Below are positions 1 to 5,412 of a stretch of DNA of 5,412 nucleotides, piece after piece. Positions within the stretch are counted from its first letter, which is position 1. Each line of letters begins with the position of its first letter. The notes beneath the pieces were generated by a model. The model was given only the letters and a program-made list of their open reading frames with translations, searched no databases and had not been told where the DNA came from. The DNA comes from a virus (lineage: Duplodnaviria; Heunggongvirae; Uroviricota; Caudoviricetes). The stretch lies in the IMG/VR virus record IMGVR_UViG_2703718819_000016, one strand, 5' to 3'. The translations under genes were made by a program, and so were the position numbers.

Positions 1-642
1 CGCTTCCACGGCGTTATTGATTACGCGCTTGCTGAAAGTGGCCCTGTGCTCTGAATAGATCGCCACCATTTCGCGGCTAAGTTCCATTGTGCTGACCGGA
101 CACCATACCCCGCCGCGCCATACGTGAACGATTTCACTTTCAGGATGTACGCAAACGCCATCAAAGCGATCGGCAAGCAGCTGCGCGCGCTCACTGTCCG
201 CCATCTGCGAAAGTTGCACCTTTTGCTTTACCGGAAGCTCAATGACCAGACCATCAGAAAGATTCTGGCGCTCACGGGCCAGATATTCGCGCCAGTTCTC
301 CACCTTCTGACCGTGCATACCATCAGGGTAAAAATTTGCATCCTGTACGCCTGCCGCCGCCAGCTTCTGGCCAATCGCCTTTATCATTACTGGCGCAAGA
401 TATCCGGCCCTGAATATGCGCACGGATTTTCTGCCTTCCGGCACAATTTGCAGCTTATCCAGTTCTGATAACTGCTGCTCCCCAAGCCACACAGGAGGCT
501 CATTATCTCCGGCCATACGCGCATCATGTTCCTGCCATTGTTTCGCGTGTGCCCAGGCATCACTACCCGCAAAAATAATGACTTCTGTTCCTTTGTGTTT
601 TATGCCGCGTGACTGCTGTTTTACGTTCGGTGCCAGTTTCAT
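1..642 (-). CDS. Putative replication protein (primase-like, in the position of P4 alpha); N-terminal 214 codons only, 3' end lies beyond the window start
   Basis: Minus-strand frame is open from ATG at 642-640 to position 1 with no stop (MKLAPNVKQQSRGIKHKGTEVIIFAGSDAWAHAKQW...). SD AGGGG lies 6 nt upstream inside the preceding gene, and the ATG overlaps that gene's TGA (ATGA). Absent from the ORF track because it has no stop in the window. The function is inferred from position at the end of the early operon, not from a recognised catalytic motif. Confidence 0.6.
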   Translation of the reverse strand, partial: MKLAPNVKQQSRGIKHKGTEVIIFAGSDAWAHAKQWQEHDARMAGDNEPPVWLGEQQLSELDKLQIVPEGRKSVRIFRAGYLAPVMIKAIGQKLAAAGVQDANFYPDGMHGQKVENWREYLARERQNLSDGLVIELPVKQKVQLSQMADSERAQLLADRFDGVCVHPESEIVHVWRGGVWCPVSTMELSREMVAIYSEHRATFSKRVINNAVEA

Positions 643-938
643 TTTTTACCCCTGAATCCGTTAATCATGGTTTTCAGCTTCTGGATGTTTGCCCGTGCCC
701 TGGCGTTGCTGGTGGGCACGTTATGCGGCGCGGTCTGTACCAGAGAAAAATCACGCCGGAACTGATAAACAGGCATCACGCAATCATATTCGTAACCTTC
801 ACGGCGGTAAGTTACGCACCGTCCCGCCACGCCCTTAATCATTACCGTGCCGCCGTACTGGTCGCGGTAAATATCACCGCGCGTAAATTTAGGGTGAGTG
901 TTGCCACTGGCAGTTAAGCCAGAATATTTAAGTTTCAT
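639..938 (-). CDS. Hypothetical small protein (99 aa), translationally coupled to the downstream replication gene
   Basis: ATG at 938-936 with GGAG upstream. Its last codons (AGG GGT AAA AAA TGA) supply the SD and overlap the start of the next gene. The overlapping frames are antisense. Confidence 0.6.
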   Translation of the reverse strand: MKLKYSGLTASGNTHPKFTRGDIYRDQYGGTVMIKGVAGRCVTYRREGYEYDCVMPVYQFRRDFSLVQTAPHNVPTSNARARANIQKLKTMINGFRGKK

Positions 939-943
939 TATTT

Positions 944-1177
944 TTATTCTCCGGTGTGGGGCGCTTTATACTGGTCGTGTAATGTCTCTATTTCCTGCAA
1001 CTCATTTATTACAGGCTCAAGAAGCGTTATTAATGCCGTGGCAATTCTTGATTTTTGTTTGTCGCGTTCATTGTCGCCAAGTGTTTCAAGCCATATGCGC
1101 AATATTTCCATCATATTTTCACTGTGAGAAAGTGCAAGAAATGCGCGGTCTATTGTTTCAAGATAAATATCACGCAT
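944..1177 (-). CDS. Hypothetical small protein (77 aa), predicted helical
   Basis: ATG at 1177-1175 preceded by GGGGA; it lies 1 nt after the upstream gene's TAA. The sequence is charged and helical-looking (MRDIYLETIDRAFLALSHSENMMEILRIWLETL...). Confidence 0.6.
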   Translation of the reverse strand: MRDIYLETIDRAFLALSHSENMMEILRIWLETLGDNERDKQKSRIATALITLLEPVINELQEIETLHDQYKAPHTGE

Positions 1178-1178
1178 A

Positions 1179-1400
1179 TTAATCCCCGTCCGTTGTTTTT
1201 CTTAAAACAGCTTCTGTCACGAAATCAGCATAGTTAGCGGCAATATCAAGAATATTTAGCCCTGTATCTCTGTGCTCATCAGTGCAAAGAAAGAAAAAAG
1301 CCACCCGCATAATTTCAGATATTGACGAAAGCGCATCAGCCGCATCATCAGGAACGCCGGAAAATTCTTGTTTCAGGGAATTAAAACGATCATCACGCAT
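1179..1400 (-). CDS. Hypothetical small protein (73 aa); start trimmed from track ORF 1179..1448 to the ATG at 1400-1398
   Basis: The ATG at 1400-1398 is preceded by a G8 tract that can act as SD, and it overlaps the upstream gene's stop (ATGCGTGA), the same geometry as the 2064-2071 junction. The product MRDDRFNSLKQEFSGVPDDAADALSSI... weakly resembles the upstream 73-aa protein. Confidence 0.5.
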   Translation of the reverse strand: MRDDRFNSLKQEFSGVPDDAADALSSISEIMRVAFFFLCTDEHRDTGLNILDIAANYADFVTEAVLRKTTDGD

Positions 1401-1614
1401 AACCCCCCCCATTTTCACAATCAGCAACAAGAATATTTTTAGCGTCATTCAGCGACCGCGTTGCGATGTATCGGATACATTCCAGGGCGAACTGTGTCCG
1501 GTCTTTCTGTTCTTCTCCCTGCGCAAGCTCTGCAGTGCATTCAATATCGATAAGCGCGTGCATCAGCGTAGTGAGCGCGGCGGCTGCTGCGTCCGGTGTG
1601 GTTTTATTGTGCAT
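1393..1614 (-). CDS. Hypothetical small protein (73 aa); start trimmed from track ORF 1393..1644 to the ATG at 1614-1612
   Basis: ATG at 1614-1612 has a strong SD (AGGGGGA, 6-nt spacing) embedded in the last codons of the upstream gene. The frame ends at TGA 1393-1395, just after the G8 tract. Confidence 0.55.
   Translation of the reverse strand: MHNKTTPDAAAAALTTLMHALIDIECTAELAQGEEQKDRTQFALECIRYIATRSLNDAKNILVADCENGGGYA
1403..1410 (-). repeat. Homopolymer tract: C8 on plus strand, G8 in the minus-strand mRNA, at the junction of two overlapping small genes
   Basis: Direct reading: aaCCCCCCCCatt at 1401-1413. Confidence 0.9.
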
Positions 1615-2071
1615 AGGTTTCCCCCTGACGAATACGGGCGACAAAAATCAGATGTGCGTGCGGCAGCTGCGCGCGTGCTTCGCGCTCAGTGGCAGCCGTG
1701 ACGGTGTAAATATCAATGCTGCTGTGGTGGCACTGCATAAAGCGCCAGACAAAGTAAGGGCGTGCGGATACGGCCATGTGAAAGGCTCCCAGATGAATTT
1801 TAAGGAGTCTCGCTACTACGCTGTCAAACATGGTGGCGAGACGTAACAGGGTTGACAGACTGGTCATCTGGAAACCAGCGAGCACAAAGGCTCCCCCGTT
1901 ACGCCCCGCCATAATGCGGGTATGGGTAGGTTTACGGACACAAAAAAACCGCTTATCGGATGTGGGCGGCTGTCCGCCAGATGTATTCAGGCTGTCAAAC
2001 CCGGTCGCCATGTGGGCGACGGGGGAAGCATACAGCCCCGTGATAATTTTTTGCAAGCGGTTTTTACGCAT
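1604..2071 (-). CDS. Two-part protein (155 aa): unique N-terminal ~100 aa fused in frame to a C-terminal ~55-aa domain paralogous to the 65-aa protein upstream (FVWRF...TEREAR...ARIRQG); possibly Ash-like plus Icd-like
   Basis: ATG at 2071-2069 with SD AGGGG; track ORF 1604..2113 trimmed to this start. The C-terminus PYFVWRFMQ...TVTAATEREARAQLP...LIFVARIRQG aligns with 2064..2261. An internal ATG (MAVSARPY) retains a GGGAGCC SD homologous to the RBS of 2064..2261. The family names are from memory and unverified. Confidence 0.6.
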   Translation of the reverse strand: MRKNRLQKIITGLYASPVAHMATGFDSLNTSGGQPPTSDKRFFCVRKPTHTRIMAGRNGGAFVLAGFQMTSLSTLLRLATMFDSVVARLLKIHLGAFHMAVSARPYFVWRFMQCHHSSIDIYTVTAATEREARAQLPHAHLIFVARIRQGETYAQ

Positions 2072-2261
2072 GATGTGACCCCTGGCGAATACGGGCGGCA
2101 AATACAGCAACACAACCGGACGGGCAACGGTTACGCGCTTCGCGTTCCGTCCAGGCGGTTACGTGGATGATTTGAGATTCTCCGGCACTCAGTGCCAGAA
2201 AACGCCACACAAAGGCCGTTTGTGTGTGTACAAGGTGTGGTATATGATTTACAGCAACCAT
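2064..2261 (-). CDS. Small protein (65 aa) with FVWRF...TEREAR...ARIRQG motifs; first gene of the leftward early operon; possibly Icd-like
   Basis: ATG at 2261-2259 with strong SD (AGGAG, 6-nt spacing). It is the paralogue of the C-terminus of 1604..2071 and its stop overlaps the next start (ATGCGTAA). The Icd-like call is from memory and needs a database check. Confidence 0.65.
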   Translation of the reverse strand: MVAVNHIPHLVHTQTAFVWRFLALSAGESQIIHVTAWTEREARNRCPSGCVAVFAARIRQGSHHA

Positions 2262-2330
2262 AACGGCTCCTAGTTTACGTTGTTGGTTAGAAGCCCCGTT
2301 ACTGCTCCTACAGTGCGGGGTTTCGTCGTT
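2217..2330. repeat. Copy 1 of a ~115-bp diverged direct repeat covering the leader, RBS and first ~15 codons of the leftward operon
   Basis: Shares cgtttgtgtgtgta (2217-2230), ccataa and ttggttagaagccc (2283-2296), followed by a GC hairpin, with 2963..3080 in the same order and orientation. Confidence 0.7.
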
Positions 2331-2350
2331 TCTACACCTTGCCTTAATAA

Positions 2351-2918: not shown

Positions 2919-2962
2919 GTGCACAAAACCGAACTCTGAAACGGATTATTCCGTTTCCGGGG

Positions 2963-3080
2963 CGTTTGTGTGTGTATAAAGAGTAAGCTATGCTCTTTTA
3001 TAGCCATAATCTTTACCTCAATTAATGGTTTGGTTAGAAGCCCGTTGGTGTTCATAGCGCCGGCGGGCTTTGCTTTTTGT
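2963..3080. repeat. Copy 2 of the ~115-bp diverged direct repeat; carries a relic start (ATG 3007-3005, MAIKEHSLLFIHTQT) homologous to the N-terminus of 2064..2261
   Basis: cgtttgtgtgtgta at 2963-2976 and ttggttagaagccc at 3030-3043. The minus-strand translation from 3007 gives MAIKEHSLLFIHTQT, against MVAVNHIPHLVHTQT for the intact gene; similarity is lost beyond ~2960. Confidence 0.65.
3038..3080 (+). terminator. Hairpin (stems 3038-3044 / 3064-3070) followed by a T-rich tract; possible intrinsic terminator for the upstream plus-strand genes
   Basis: aagcccg...cgggctt stem with a 19-nt loop, then tgctttttgt. The T-run is interrupted, so strength is uncertain. Confidence 0.4.
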
Positions 3081-3089
3081 GTTGATTGT

Positions 3090-3123
3090 ATGTAATGTGT
3101 CACCACACATAAATACATTACAT
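3090..3123. promoter_or_regulatory. 9-bp inverted repeat ATGTAATGT (3090-3098) / ACATTACAT (3115-3123) flanking TGTGTCACCACACA; candidate operator of the second RHH gene
   Basis: A perfect 9-bp inverted repeat with a 16-bp spacer lies immediately upstream of the SD and start of 3138..3317. Confidence 0.5.
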
Positions 3124-3137
3124 GAGGTGTAATTAAC

Positions 3138-3317
3138 GTGTCAACACACAAAAACGAAAGGCGTGGTAATCCTCCGTTCCAGTTCCGTTTAGATCCTGAC
3201 TTACGGGAAAAGATGGAAAAGGCACAACAACATGACGGCGATGATTCTCTTGCTGCCTGGATAAAGCGAATAATCCGCAAAGAATTACAGCAACGCGGCA
3301 TAGAACCCAAAGGGTAA
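3138..3317 (+). CDS. Arc/Mnt-type ribbon-helix-helix repressor-like protein (59 aa, GTG start)
   Basis: GTG at 3138 with SD GAGGTG 7 nt upstream. PPFQFRLDPDLREKMEKAQQHDGDDSLAAWIKRIIRKEL closely follows the Arc/Mnt pattern (P-x-F-x-F-R...L-R-E-K...G-x-S...I). The translation-initiation region is homologous to that of 2454..2633. Not in the ORF track, probably because it is below the length cut-off. Confidence 0.55.
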   Translation: MSTHKNERRGNPPFQFRLDPDLREKMEKAQQHDGDDSLAAWIKRIIRKELQQRGIEPKG

Positions 3318-3467: not shown

Positions 3468-3674
3468 TTACGCAGCCGTTCCGCGTGCTTCCTGCTCACG
3501 TTCTTTCATCCATGCGATTACGTCTTCCTCATACCATCCGCGACGGCGTAAACCAACGCGAAAACCCTGCGGAAATTCTCCGGCGTTGATCATGCTTTGA
3601 AGCGTGCTGTCTGCCTTGATGTGGATAAGTTTTTTTACTTCCTGGCGAAAGATGACTTTTTTGATTGCTTCCAT
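3468..3674 (-). CDS. alpA: AlpA-family phage regulatory protein (helix-turn-helix; excision and transcription regulator)
   Basis: 68 aa, IFRQEVKKLIHIKADSTLQSMINAGEFPQGFRVGLRRRGWYEEDVIAWMKERE, matches the AlpA/Vis family pattern (E-V...S-x-x-T-I-x-x-x-I-x-x-G-x-F-P...W-x-x-x-E-V-x-x-W). ATG at 3674-3672 with SD AAGGT. Typical position downstream of a P4-type integrase. Confidence 0.85.
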   Translation of the reverse strand: MEAIKKVIFRQEVKKLIHIKADSTLQSMINAGEFPQGFRVGLRRRGWYEEDVIAWMKEREQEARGTAA

Positions 3675-3691: not shown

Positions 3692-3780
3692 ATCCGGTGT
3701 ATTCCGGTGACAAATACGGTAAATCATCGGATACGGGTAAAAACAGTTCCCACCGTTTTTAAACTGTTAGAACCGTTTTT
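3692..3780. promoter_or_regulatory. Cluster of tandem direct repeats upstream of alpA: (A/T)TCCGGTG x2 (3692-3709), ATACGG(G)TAAA x2 (3714-3743), AAC(A/T)GTT-N3-ACCGTTTTT x2 (3742-3780)
   Basis: Three pairs of direct repeats with ~10- or ~20-bp periodicity, read directly in the alpA 5' region; candidate protein-binding sites. Confidence 0.5.
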
Positions 3781-4170: not shown

Positions 4171-5412
4171 CTAAACGGCTCGGATACCCCTTTTACCACT
4201 GGCGAGGGTTACGCCCGTCGCCGCAGCCTCGACAAATTCGCCCCACCAGCGCATAAGCACCACGCGTTTTTCTATGTAGTTGCTCCGGTTGTATGCCCGT
4301 CTCACTTCGTTAGTGTCGACGTGGGCAAGTGCGGCCTCGATTACGTCCGGCTCGAATCCTTCCTCGTTCGCTGCTGTACTGAATATGGCGCGTAATCCAT
4401 GAGACACCAGCACGCCAGCGAACCCCATGCGTCGTAATGCTGCGTTTGCTGTCTGGCTGTTCATTGGCTGCCGTGGGTCTTTCAGACTCGGGAAAACATA
4501 ATCGCGGTGGTGGCTGATTGGTTTCATGGCCTCCAGCACCGCCATAGCCTGACCGGAAAGTGGGATAACGTGATCCCTGCGCATCTTCATGCGTCCGGCG
4601 GGTATCGTCCAGCGTTGCGCGTCCAGGTCGATTTCATCCCACCGCGTTGATGACGCTTCGGCGGGACGGGTTACGGTCAGTAACTGCCATTCAATCAGTA
4701 ATCTGGTCTGCCGTTCTGTTGCCGATACTGATAAAGCCTGCATAAGCTCCGGCAACTGTTCGGGGCGGATTGTTGGCATATGTTTTTTTACAGGGGAGGG
4801 GAACGCCTTACGCACATTCATAGCCGGATTGGCATCAATCAGCCCACTGTTGGCGGCGTAATCCATTACCTCATTAACGCGCTGTAAAACCCGTTTGAGT
4901 GTTTCCAGGTTGCCGCGCTCCTTGATGGGGGTAAGCACCTCAACGAACCTGCGAGCGGTCAGGGTGTCTATTGGGGTGTTGCCGATGAACGGGAATACAT
5001 ATTTATCCAGCGATCGCCAGATGTCTTTAATCGTGTTGGGGGCCAGATTCTGGCTGATTTTCACCTGGTACCATGCCGCCGCCACATTTTCGAACGTGTT
5101 CCCTTGTCTTCGGGCCTCTGCCTCTCGTTTTTTCTTCTCATGGCCCTGCGGGTCAGTTCCGGCACTGATTAACGCTCTGTACTCGCTACGGCGTTTTCTG
5201 GCATCAGCCAGGGAAACATCATCAAGCGATCCAAAACTCAGCAATATTCTTTTTTTGTCCGATGGCCGGTAGTAGGAAAATCGCCAGAGTTTTGATCCGG
5301 ACGGTTTGACCAGGAGAAAAAGCCCTCCGCCGTCCTGTAGGGTGTATTCCTTTTCCGCTGGTCTGGCTGCTTTGATCTGCACCGTGGTTAATGGGGGTGT
5401 TTTTCTCGCCAT
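4171..5412 (-). CDS. int: P4-type tyrosine integrase (site-specific recombinase, IntA-like), full length 413 aa
   Basis: The N-terminus MARKTPPLT...GSKLWRFSYYRP matches the P4/CP4-57 IntA arm-binding region. The C-terminus has catalytic-domain hallmarks (…LLTVTRPAEA…RDHVIPLS…HGLR…VRRAYNRSNY). The start ATG is at 5412-5410, the window edge. Confidence 0.95.
   Translation of the reverse strand: MARKTPPLTTVQIKAARPAEKEYTLQDGGGLFLLVKPSGSKLWRFSYYRPSDKKRILLSFGSLDDVSLADARKRRSEYRALISAGTDPQGHEKKKREAEARRQGNTFENVAAAWYQVKISQNLAPNTIKDIWRSLDKYVFPFIGNTPIDTLTARRFVEVLTPIKERGNLETLKRVLQRVNEVMDYAANSGLIDANPAMNVRKAFPSPVKKHMPTIRPEQLPELMQALSVSATERQTRLLIEWQLLTVTRPAEASSTRWDEIDLDAQRWTIPAGRMKMRRDHVIPLSGQAMAVLEAMKPISHHRDYVFPSLKDPRQPMNSQTANAALRRMGFAGVLVSHGLRAIFSTAANEEGFEPDVIEAALAHVDTNEVRRAYNRSNYIEKRVVLMRWWGEFVEAAATGVTLASGKRGIRAV

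What the first reader, a model, noticed from the sequence alone, without database searches (positions are those of the whole stretch)
1393..1412. G8/C8 homopolymer at a gene junction: expanded SD, slippage-prone switch, or sequencing error
In the mRNA the tract reads AAT GGG GGG GGT TAT GCG TGA. With 8 G the upstream 73-aa protein terminates and the next gene starts at the overlapping ATG. With 7 or 10 G the two frames fuse into a single ~143-aa protein (…VADCENGG-VMRDDRFNSL…). Tracts of this length are prone to slipped-strand mispairing and are also a classic homopolymer sequencing-error site, so the two-gene versus one-gene state is uncertain and could vary.
Basis: partly seen in the sequence, partly recalled or inferred. 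Interest (0 to 1): 0.5.

Follow-up and report, generated by a model that had tools for sequence, protein, structure and literature searches.

The report
Length-variable poly-G tract joining two genes
The run of eight G's is real and sits where two small genes of an E. coli phage-satellite island overlap; its length differs from strain to strain (5 to 13 G), so the two genes are separate in some strains and fused in others, probably with little harm because the second gene keeps its own start signal.

Summary
C8 lies at + strand 1403-1410, which is G8 in the minus-strand mRNA. Gene A (1393-1614, 73 aa) stops at TGA 1395-1393. Gene B (1179-1400, 73 aa) starts at ATG 1400-1398.

The tract length is truly polymorphic. 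In 143 homologous loci from two independent collections I found G7 33, G8 61, G9 30, G10 5, G11 2 and 12 interrupted tracts. Exact-protein look-ups in two fixed amino-acid backgrounds found every length from 5 to 12. DNA checks confirmed pure G5, G12 and G13 runs.

Tract length carries almost no phylogenetic signal, while other homopolymers in the same loci are stable. Sequencing error therefore does not explain the variation.

Distant relatives without the tract have separate A and B genes with a canonical GGAGG at the same spot. The tract gives the strongest predicted anti-Shine-Dalgarno pairing in the window, and that pairing does not change for seven or more G's.

My best reading is a slippage-prone, expanded Shine-Dalgarno/Gly-linker tract whose frame changes are tolerated. 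A regulatory "switch" role is unproven.

The parts
1403..1410 (-). Poly-G tract (G8 in mRNA sense, C8 on the + strand). It encodes the Gly-Gly-Gly at the C-terminus of gene A and lies 2 nt upstream of the gene B ATG.
   Evidence: homologous position in 143 loci
1393..1400 (-). ATGCGTGA start/stop overlap: gene B ATG at 1400-1398, gene A TGA at 1395-1393.
   Evidence: the same 8-nt overlap is annotated in RefSeq relatives and in a tract-less relative as ATGCATAA
1393..1614 (-). Gene A, 73 aa, predicted helical hairpin, function unknown. Matches phrog_5146 and the N-terminal half of phrog_2512.
   Evidence: dN/dS 0.24-0.37; the exact protein is in 7 contigs
1179..1400 (-). Gene B, 73 aa, helical, function unknown. 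Matches phrog_24341 and the C-terminal half of phrog_2512.
   Evidence: dN/dS 0.23-0.31; distant homologues start at the same Met
944..1177 (-). Gene C, 77 aa, next small gene of the operon (phrog_2196).
639..938 (-). DUF4222 protein gene, 99 aa.
   Evidence: PF13973, 82 bits
1..642 (-). N-terminal part of the primase / replication gene, cut by the window end.
   Evidence: phrog_864 DNA primase; relatives are annotated as DNA primase family protein or RepA helicase
1604..1777 (-). Icd-like gene immediately upstream of gene A, overlapping it by 11 nt.
   Evidence: NF033153, 55 bits
1829..1916 (-). C4 antisense RNA.
   Evidence: RF01695, 72.6 bits against a gathering score of 45
1984..2033 (-). 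a1/b1 target sites of C4 RNA.
   Evidence: RF03163, 46.8 bits against 46.7
2064..2261 (-). Second Icd-like gene, first in transcription order.
   Evidence: NF033153, 64.8 bits
3468..3674 (-). AlpA-like helix-turn-helix regulator gene.
   Evidence: PF05930, 17.8 bits, below the 21-bit cut-off; positional homologues carry PF05930
4171..5412 (-). Tyrosine integrase gene.
   Evidence: PF00589, PF22022, PF13356

Best explanation
The G8 run is a genuine, conserved but length-unstable homopolymer. It lies at the translationally coupled junction of two small genes, A and B, in the early operon of an E. coli PICI/P4-like phage satellite. That operon runs C4 RNA, icd-like, A, B, C, DUF4222, primase. The tract does two jobs: it encodes the Gly-Gly(-Gly) tail of A, and it is the Shine-Dalgarno element of B. 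Replication slippage changes its length, and 5 to 13 G are seen in nature. This cycles the locus through three states. In the first (n = 7, 10, 13) A and B are fused into a protein of about 145 aa, two helical modules joined by a Gly linker. In the second (n = 5, 8, 11; this window) the genes are split with the ATGCGTGA overlap. In the third (n = 6, 9, 12) they are split with a 28-nt overlap and A gains an extra LCVMIVLIP tail. Gene B keeps its own ATG, and predicted SD pairing does not depend on length for n >= 7. Both modules can therefore be made in every state and ribosome cover of the operon is never interrupted, so the frame changes are tolerated and all three states coexist in the population. 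Shown here: the polymorphism, its speed relative to point substitutions, the split arrangement in tract-less relatives, the predicted SD strength, and purifying selection on A and B. Inferred: that slippage is the cause, that B is translated in all states, and that the states are functionally near-equivalent.
For: 1. Length polymorphism. In 90 IMG/VR loci I found G7 23, G8 34, G9 18, G10 4, G11 2 and 9 interrupted tracts. In 53 metagenome loci I found G7 10, G8 27, G9 12, G10 1 and 3 interrupted. 2. Fixed amino-acid backgrounds show a unimodal spread. The MCNKTT allele gives n=5 11 contigs, 6: 5, 7: 258, 8: >=1000, 9: >=1000, 10: 152, 11: 47, 12: 8. The O157-type allele gives 5: 24, 6: 70, 7: >=1000, 8: 912, 9: 140, 10: 41, 11: 19, 12: 4. 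DNA checks confirm pure G5, G12 and G13 runs. 3. The tract changes fast. Six of 10 groups with identical 460-nt flanks hold more than one length. Pairs with identical flanks differ in length in 41% of cases. There are 34 parsimony changes on 88 tips, against 41.5 for shuffled tips and a mean of 3.3 per ordinary site. 4. Sequencing error is not the cause. Other homopolymers in the same loci vary in 3 of 161 cases, against 47 of 83 for the tract. A G6 run at an alternative junction upstream of the same B gene is G6 in 13 of 14 loci. Nine O157-lineage complete genomes from different laboratories all encode the same fused protein, although they were picked by equal score. 5. The split layout is ancestral and the tract sits at the SD position. 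Relatives at 55% identity or less are mostly separate A-only (72-76 aa) and B-only (75-77 aa) proteins, with B starting at the same Met. Locus L094 has ...CAGGAGGTGGGGCATGCATAA at the equivalent junction. Locus L101 has CAGGGGGGTAAACATGCGTGA upstream of B. 6. SD strength. The predicted anti-SD duplex is -11.1 kcal/mol, the strongest of the nine gene starts scored in the window. Random 20-mers average -2.7, and 2.2% reach -9 or lower. The value is constant for G7 to G13. 7. Both genes are under purifying selection: dN/dS is 0.24-0.37 for A and 0.23-0.31 for B. 8. The AF2 model of the fused form shows two helical units joined at the NGGVM linker, but at low confidence (pLDDT 57.8).
Against: No expression data exist, so equal function of the three states is an inference. 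All 12 interrupted, stabilised alleles are in split frames and none is fused. The chance of that is about 0.02 if the alleles were independent, which hints that the fused state may be mildly disfavoured or that the states are not equivalent. The tract stays a pure G run in 131 of 143 loci even though dS among haplotypes is 0.2-0.7. It lies in a DNA block of about 60 nt that is unusually conserved even at synonymous sites. This could mean selection for the run itself, which would favour a contingency function, rather than mere tolerance. The pattern used to collect loci required conserved flanks, which biases the sample. The sequencing platforms of the assemblies are unknown to me.
Confidence: 0.7

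Rival explanations
1. Adaptive contingency locus. The poly-G tract is maintained by selection as a stochastic switch. Tethered A-B, free A plus B, and tail-extended A have different activities, for example in helper-phage sensing, replication control or interference. A satellite population would thereby hedge its bets.
For: The tract persists as a pure run in 131 of 143 loci across haplotypes with dS of 0.2-0.7. It lies in an unusually conserved DNA block. All three frames occur at substantial frequency: 38, 71 and 34 loci. Other variable poly-G runs occur in related islands, inside gene C alleles and upstream of another ATG. Rare GGG codons are used where GGT or GGC would avoid instability.
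Against: Gene B has its own ATG and a length-independent SD, so nothing is turned off. The length distributions are smooth and unimodal, with no frame-specific excess or deficit, as expected from neutral slippage around an equilibrium length. The functions of A and B are unknown. Ordinary slippage rates at G8-9 may be enough to explain the saturation.
Confidence: 0.15
2. Programmed recoding. A ribosomal +1 frameshift (on G8) or -1 frameshift (on G9), or RNA-polymerase slippage on the G run, makes a fixed ratio of A and A-B fusion from one genotype.
For: Homopolymers can be slippery, and the fusion product is a plausible protein that is directly encoded by other alleles.
Against: The relation between the two frames is not conserved: all three frames are common. 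There is no stimulatory structure: the 141-nt fold has z = 0.01. Genome-wide data for E. coli found all transcriptional insertions within homopolymeric runs in A/T runs, and the authors concluded that G and C runs are not prone to slippage (PMC5574713). Tract-less relatives have simple separate genes.
Confidence: 0.04
3. Sequencing or assembly artefact. The true tract in this window is G7 or G9-10 and was miscalled.
For: Homopolymers of 8 or more bases are error-prone on some platforms, and the platform for this window is unknown.
Against: G8 is the modal allele in two independent collections. The window's exact 73-aa gene A product occurs in 7 contigs, including a 5.6-Mb chromosome. The identical G8-type protein of another allele carries the UniProt identifier A0A0H2V8R5_ECOL6. 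From my own knowledge, that mnemonic denotes strain CFT073, which was Sanger-sequenced. Control homopolymers are stable in the same assemblies.
Confidence: 0.03

Closest known systems
Simple-sequence contingency loci: phase variation by slipped-strand mispairing at poly-G/C tracts, as in Campylobacter, Neisseria, Haemophilus, Helicobacter and Bordetella (for example PMC1891110, PMC5084427)
   Same: A G/C homopolymer of 7-13 nt lies inside coding sequence. Its length differs among near-identical strains, follows a unimodal distribution and shifts the reading frame.
   Different: The host is E. coli, on a phage satellite. No frame switches a product off, because the downstream module has its own start codon and the tract is its SD. 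The outcome is gene fusion or fission, not ON/OFF. Within-culture switching and a phenotype have not been shown.
Translationally coupled overlapping genes (ATGnnTGA type) with the SD inside the upstream ORF, including icd-ant coupling in the P1 immI operon under C4 RNA control (from my own knowledge of the P1 literature)
   Same: There is an 8-nt stop/start overlap and a strong SD within the last codons of the upstream gene. The pair lies in an operon headed by C4 RNA and an icd-like gene. The same architecture with a canonical GGAGG is seen in a tract-less relative.
   Different: Here the SD has become a pure G run long enough to be mutationally unstable. The partners are unrelated to ant.
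EcCICFT073-type phage-inducible chromosomal islands (PMC6092414)
   Same: The int, alpA, small ORFs and primase layout matches. A G8-type gene A product is listed under the UniProt identifier A0A0H2V8R5_ECOL6. Positional homologues carry Phage_AlpA, DUF4222 and D5_N/DUF5906 primase domains.
   Different: Only 5.4 kb of the island is in the window. Helper dependence, att sites and the packaging module cannot be assessed. The paper does not describe these two ORFs or the tract in the passages I read.
Programmed frameshift sites that yield fused products (dnaX, lambda G/GT, IS element orfAB)
   Same: Two overlapping ORFs could be joined by a one-base shift at a homopolymer.
   Different: The frame relation is not fixed, there is no stimulatory structure, and the run is G rather than A/T. 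The fusion is achieved at the DNA level in different strains.

Membership tests
SSM contingency locus (phase-variable homopolymer) | Uninterrupted mononucleotide run of at least about 7 nt within or next to an ORF | tested here: met
   G8 at 1403-1410 (-) inside gene A and 2 nt upstream of the gene B ATG
SSM contingency locus (phase-variable homopolymer) | Tract length differs among otherwise near-identical strains | tested here: met
   Lengths 5-12 occur in two fixed protein backgrounds. Six of 10 identical-flank groups are polymorphic. Parsimony changes are near saturation.
SSM contingency locus (phase-variable homopolymer) | A length change switches a gene product on or off, or changes its amount | tested here: inconclusive
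   ORF structure changes between fused, split and split with a tail. However, B keeps its own ATG, and predicted SD strength is constant for n >= 7. Protein levels are not testable here.
SSM contingency locus (phase-variable homopolymer) | Reversible high-frequency switching within a clonal population, with a selectable phenotype | not testable with these tools
   This needs read-level data, fluctuation assays and phenotype tests.
Translationally coupled overlapping gene pair | The stop codon of the upstream gene overlaps or abuts the start codon of the downstream gene | tested here: met
   ATGCGTGA at 1393-1400. The same overlap is annotated in L001 and L002, and ATGCATAA is present in L094.
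Translationally coupled overlapping gene pair | Shine-Dalgarno element within about 5-13 nt upstream of the downstream start, inside the upstream ORF | tested here: met
   The anti-SD duplex is -11.1 kcal/mol, the strongest of nine gene starts scored in the window. Random 20-mers average -2.7. GGAGG and G6 occupy the equivalent place in relatives.
Translationally coupled overlapping gene pair | Downstream translation depends on upstream translation | not testable with these tools
   This requires reporter fusions with upstream stop mutants.
Programmed ribosomal frameshift site | Conserved slippery sequence with a fixed frame relation between the two ORFs | tested here: not met
   All three frame relations are common: 38, 71 and 34 of 143 loci.
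Programmed ribosomal frameshift site | Downstream stimulatory RNA structure or upstream SD-like stimulator at a defined spacing | tested here: not met
   The 141-nt fold has z = 0.01 and 98 of 200 shuffles fold as well.
Transcriptional slippage site | Long A or T run on which RNA polymerase reiterates | tested here: not met
   The run is G/C. PMC5574713 reports that all transcriptional insertions within homopolymeric runs in E. coli were in A/T runs.
PICI (EcCICFT073 type) | An int gene at one end, an alpA regulator, then an operon ending in pri-rep, with no phage lysis or structural genes in between | tested here: inconclusive
   The integrase is met. AlpA scores 17.8 bits, below the 21-bit cut-off, but positional homologues carry PF05930. 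The primase N-terminus is found by PHROG. The window ends inside the primase gene.
PICI (EcCICFT073 type) | Helper-phage-dependent induction and packaging, with specific att sites | not testable with these tools
   These are experimental properties. The relative L001 sits next to tRNA-Pro.
P1-type c4/icd immunity module | C4 antisense RNA, its a1/b1 target sites and an icd-like ORF in one transcription unit | tested here: met
   RF01695 scores 72.6 bits against 45, and RF03163 scores 46.8 against 46.7. NF033153 scores 55 and 65 bits against 25.

The most novel reading that the evidence does not exclude
The poly-G tract is a selected contingency element of E. coli phage satellites. By slipping among three frames it converts two small proteins into a tethered fusion or a tail-extended form with different activities towards the helper phage or the island's own replication. 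This would give the satellite population heritable but reversible heterogeneity. It would be a rare mononucleotide phase-variation system in E. coli, and one that acts by gene fusion and fission rather than ON/OFF.
Probability: 0.12. Interest if true: 0.7.

Novelty: new member of a known kind. Interest (0 to 1): 0.4.

Why it matters
Mononucleotide contingency tracts are regarded as typical of Campylobacter, Neisseria, Haemophilus and Helicobacter. In coding DNA generally they are avoided by selection (PMC1378130). This is a clear, population-wide example of an unstable poly-G run in E. coli, carried on a widespread family of phage satellites. The tract is embedded so that frameshifts rearrange two genes rather than destroy them.

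There is a practical consequence. Genome annotation of this locus is inconsistent: two hypothetical proteins, one fused protein, or a 'frameshifted' pseudogene. Tract length should not be read as a sequencing error or as gene decay.

There is also a biological consequence. The locus is a natural test bed for how translational coupling and SD placement buffer frameshift mutations. If the states differ in function, it would be a new layer of heterogeneity in satellite-helper conflicts.

Tried and rejected
- Pfam, NCBIfam, PADLOC and PDB sequence searches for A, B and the fused form found nothing.
- tblastn of the fused protein against 50,697 phage records found no match, so this is not a P4 gene.
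- BLASTP of A against B found no similarity, so there is no evidence of an internal duplication.
- The AlphaFold2 model of the fused protein had pLDDT 57.8. That is too low for a meaningful fold search, so I ran none.
- The genome-contig scan, with one genome per species, returned a single locus, Shigella flexneri with G8. The family as searched is essentially confined to E. coli and Shigella.
- A frameshift-stimulating RNA structure was rejected (z = 0.01).
- Transcriptional slippage was rejected on published E. coli data.
- The nine O157-lineage complete genomes all have G7. I do not count this as evidence of stability, because those hits were chosen from rows with identical alignment scores, which forces equal tract length.
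- Two literature searches found no description of this tract.

Full report
**Observation**

The + strand has C8 at 1403-1410. The genes in this part of the window are on the minus strand, where the mRNA reads ...GAT TGT GAA AAT GGG GGG GGT TAT GCG TGA.

- Gene A (1393-1614, from its ATG) encodes 73 aa ending ENGGGYA*.
- Gene B (1179-1400) encodes 73 aa beginning MRDDRFNSL.
- B's ATG (1400-1398) and A's TGA (1395-1393) form an ATGCGTGA overlap.

One G8 run in 5.4 kb is not significant by itself: 0.17 are expected, and 24 of 200 shuffles contain at least one. Its recurrence at the same position in homologues is what makes it a real feature.

**Context**

The window is the left part of an E. coli phage satellite of the PICI/P4-like kind.

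| Feature | Coordinates (strand) | Evidence |
|---|---|---|
| Integrase | 4171-5412 (-) | |
| AlpA-like HTH | 3468-3674 (-) |, sub-threshold; PF05930 in positional homologues, |
| Icd-like genes | 2064-2261 and 1604-1777 (-) | |
| C4 antisense RNA | 1829-1916 (-) | |
| a1/b1 targets of C4 | 1984-2033 (-) | |
| Genes A, B, C | 1393-1614, 1179-1400, 944-1177 (-) | |
| DUF4222 gene | 639-938 (-) | |
| Primase N-terminus | 1-642 (-) | |

RefSeq relatives have the same order next to tRNA-Pro. A G8-type gene A product of a sister allele is listed under the UniProt identifier A0A0H2V8R5_ECOL6. From my own knowledge, that mnemonic is strain CFT073, the host of the prototype island EcCICFT073 (PMC6092414).

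**The fused form exists**

The profile phrog_2512 has 154 positions. Gene A matches positions 1-76 and gene B matches 78-146. A search with the hypothetical G7 fusion returned more than 100 E. coli protein clusters of 144, 145, 150-155 and 217-221 aa that cover the whole query. Their junctions read CENGGVMRDD or CENGGGVMRDD, and some are seen on hundreds of contigs. RefSeq annotates the locus in three ways:

- two hypothetical proteins;
- one fused hypothetical protein, WP_000551675.1 in O157;
- a 'frameshifted' pseudogene.

**How variable is the tract?**

A pattern anchored on the conserved flanks retrieved 90 IMG/VR loci and 53 metagenome loci.

| Tract | IMG/VR (90) | Metagenome (53) | Total (143) |
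|---|---|---|---|
| G7 | 23 | 10 | 33 |
| G8 | 34 | 27 | 61 |
| G9 | 18 | 12 | 30 |
| G10 | 4 | 1 | 5 |
| G11 | 2 | 0 | 2 |
| Interrupted | 9 | 3 | 12 |

The interrupted forms are GGGGGTGG, GGGGTGGG, GGGGTTGG, GGGGGGGGTGG, GGGGAGGGGGGG and GGGGGGGGGGAG. By frame, 38 loci are fused, 71 are split with the 8-nt overlap and 34 are split with the 28-nt overlap.

Exact-sequence look-ups held the rest of the protein constant and varied only the tract. Every length from 5 to 12 was found in two backgrounds.

| n | MCNKTT allele (contigs) | O157-type allele (contigs) |
|---|---|---|
| 5 | 11 | 24 |
| 6 | 5 | 70 |
| 7 | 258 | >=1000 |
| 8 | >=1000 | 912 |
| 9 | >=1000 | 140 |
| 10 | 152 | 41 |
| 11 | 47 | 19 |
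| 12 | 8 | 4 |

The DNA of the extreme forms is a pure run: G5 in four samples, G12 in four assemblies and G13 in one. A further route to fusion is deletion of one T, giving GGGGGGGG-T-ATG in P0086.

**Rate and the error question**

- Of 10 groups of loci with identical 230+230-nt flanks, 6 contain more than one tract length.
- Pairs with identical flanks differ in tract length in 41% of cases, and pairs with 1-2 flank differences in 88%. That is at or above the roughly 70% seen among unrelated pairs.
- On a neighbour-joining tree of 88 loci the tract needs 34 changes. Shuffled tips need 41.5 on average (minimum 34), and an ordinary site needs 3.3.
- Other homopolymers of the window (A/T runs of 6-8, G/C runs of 5) vary in 3 of 161 comparable cases in the same loci. 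The tract differs from its modal length in 47 of 83.
- In a sample anchored on gene B, a different upstream partner gene joins B through TCATTCAGGGGGGTAAAC|ATG. That G6 run is G6 in 13 of 14 loci.
- The window's exact gene A protein occurs in 7 contigs, including a 5.6-Mb chromosome.

These results are not what consensus sequencing error would produce. They fit the known steep rise of slippage with run length. I could not inspect reads or sequencing platforms.

**What the tract is for**

Relatives at 55% identity or less are mostly separate proteins. A-only proteins are 72-76 aa and end at the equivalent position. B-only proteins are 75-77 aa and start at the same Met. Fused distant forms such as P0160 carry the same ENGGGVMRDD junction.

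In the tract-less relative L094, gene A ends ...CAG GAG GTG GGG CAT GCA TAA. The next gene starts at the embedded ATG, so a canonical GGAGG sits where the window has G8, with the same 8-nt overlap.

The predicted pairing with the 16S 3' end is -11.1 kcal/mol for gene B. That is the strongest of the nine gene starts scored in the window. Random 20-mers average -2.7, and 2.2% reach -9 or lower. The value is flat from G7 to G13, falls to -9.1 at G5 and to -5.4 at G4.

The split layout with an internal SD is therefore ancestral. The tract is an expanded SD that also encodes the Gly tail or linker. Both genes are under purifying selection: dN/dS is 0.24-0.37 for A and 0.23-0.31 for B. The low-confidence AF2 model of the fusion shows two helical units joined at NGGVM.

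**Mechanism proposed**

DNA slippage moves the locus among three frames. In each frame the A module is translated, B can start at its own ATG behind an SD of unchanged strength, and no long untranslated gap opens in an operon that is probably controlled by C4-mediated translational repression and polarity. That last point comes from my own knowledge of P1 immI, not from a test here.

The smooth unimodal length distributions, with no frame-specific dips, fit near-neutral drift around 8 G.

Three observations point the other way. All 12 interrupted alleles are in split frames. The run remains pure despite dS of 0.2-0.7 among haplotypes. It lies in a DNA block, from about -20 to +40, that is conserved even at synonymous sites. 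These leave room for selection on the run or on the state.

**Rivals**

- Programmed ribosomal frameshifting is not supported, because the frame relation varies and there is no stimulatory structure (z = 0.01).
- Transcriptional slippage is not supported. In E. coli, all transcriptional insertions within homopolymeric runs were found in A/T runs (PMC5574713).
- Error in this particular window is unlikely, for the reasons given above.

**Verdict**

The feature is a slippage-prone poly-G tract that doubles as SD and Gly linker at a coupled gene junction of an E. coli phage satellite. It is a new example of a known kind of element. It is unusual for E. coli, and unusual in producing gene fusion and fission rather than ON/OFF. 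The functions of A and B, and any phenotypic effect of the three states, remain unknown.

Noticed in passing
window 1604-2261 (-): There is a P1-type immunity module. It comprises C4 antisense RNA (1829-1916), its a1/b1 target sites (1984-2033) and two Icd-like genes (2064-2261 and 1604-1777). The mechanical 169-aa ORF at 1604-2113 is therefore largely RNA-coding, not protein-coding.
   Followed up: partly
window 1942-2020 (-): A sub-threshold Rfam match to isrK Hfq-binding RNA (35.2 bits against a gathering score of 50) overlaps the a1/b1 region.
   Followed up: no
window 2945-3090 (-) compared with 2200-2345 (-): A paralogous copy of the leader of the first icd-like gene is present. It has the hairpin, GGGCTTCTAACC, the RBS, the ATG and the first codons ending ...ACACACACAAACG. 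It looks like a truncated third icd-like module. Between the copies lie + strand small ORFs (2445-2633, 2691-2918, 3138-3317) with no family match. Relatives annotate a YlcI/YnfO family protein in this position.
   Followed up: partly
window 3741-3780: A tandem 20-nt direct repeat (AAACAGTTCCCACCGTTTTT / AAACTGTTAGAACCGTTTTT, 80% identity) lies just upstream of the alpA-like gene. It may be a regulator binding site.
   Followed up: no
window 1410-1412 (-): In the G8 allele, the AT of the AAT codon plus the first G of the run form an ATG in gene B's frame. This would give a 77-aa MGGVMRDD... form. It has no SD (+0.4 kcal/mol), so it is probably not used, although some gene callers pick it.
   Followed up: partly
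L029 7371-7402, L032 6208-6238, L044 6189-6220, L056 6243-6274: A second length-variable poly-G run (G5 to G9) lies inside a gene C allele of related islands: ...CATGCCGAAC(A)G(n)ATTTATTTTCTGC.
   Followed up: partly
L010 8894-8925 and L032 1651-1680: Another run, G10 in one locus and G8 in the other, lies immediately upstream of an ATG (ACG(n)ATATGCC) elsewhere in related islands.
   Followed up: no
window about 1360-1430 (tract -20 to +40): The roughly 60 nt around the junction are the most conserved DNA of the A-B region across 71 haplotypes, including synonymous sites. This extends beyond the bases required by my search pattern. The cause is not resolved: an RBS or coupling constraint, a recombination joint between mosaic modules, or something else.
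   Followed up: partly
P0051, P0090 (217-221 aa proteins); no window coordinates: In some E. coli islands a further upstream gene of about 73 aa is fused in frame to A-B (...NAEGY-MCNKTT...), giving triple fusions. The junction was not examined.
   Followed up: no
L100 1221-1678; L099 1091-1555; L001 4030-4465: RefSeq/PGAP annotation of this locus is inconsistent: a 'frameshifted' pseudogene, a single 154-aa hypothetical protein, or two 73-aa hypothetical proteins. Which one appears depends only on tract length.
   Followed up: yes
L093 3001-3432 (Shigella flexneri SFBU1023): The Shigella copy has G8 and also carries an extra frameshift inside gene B, so that copy of B is probably decaying.
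   Followed up: no
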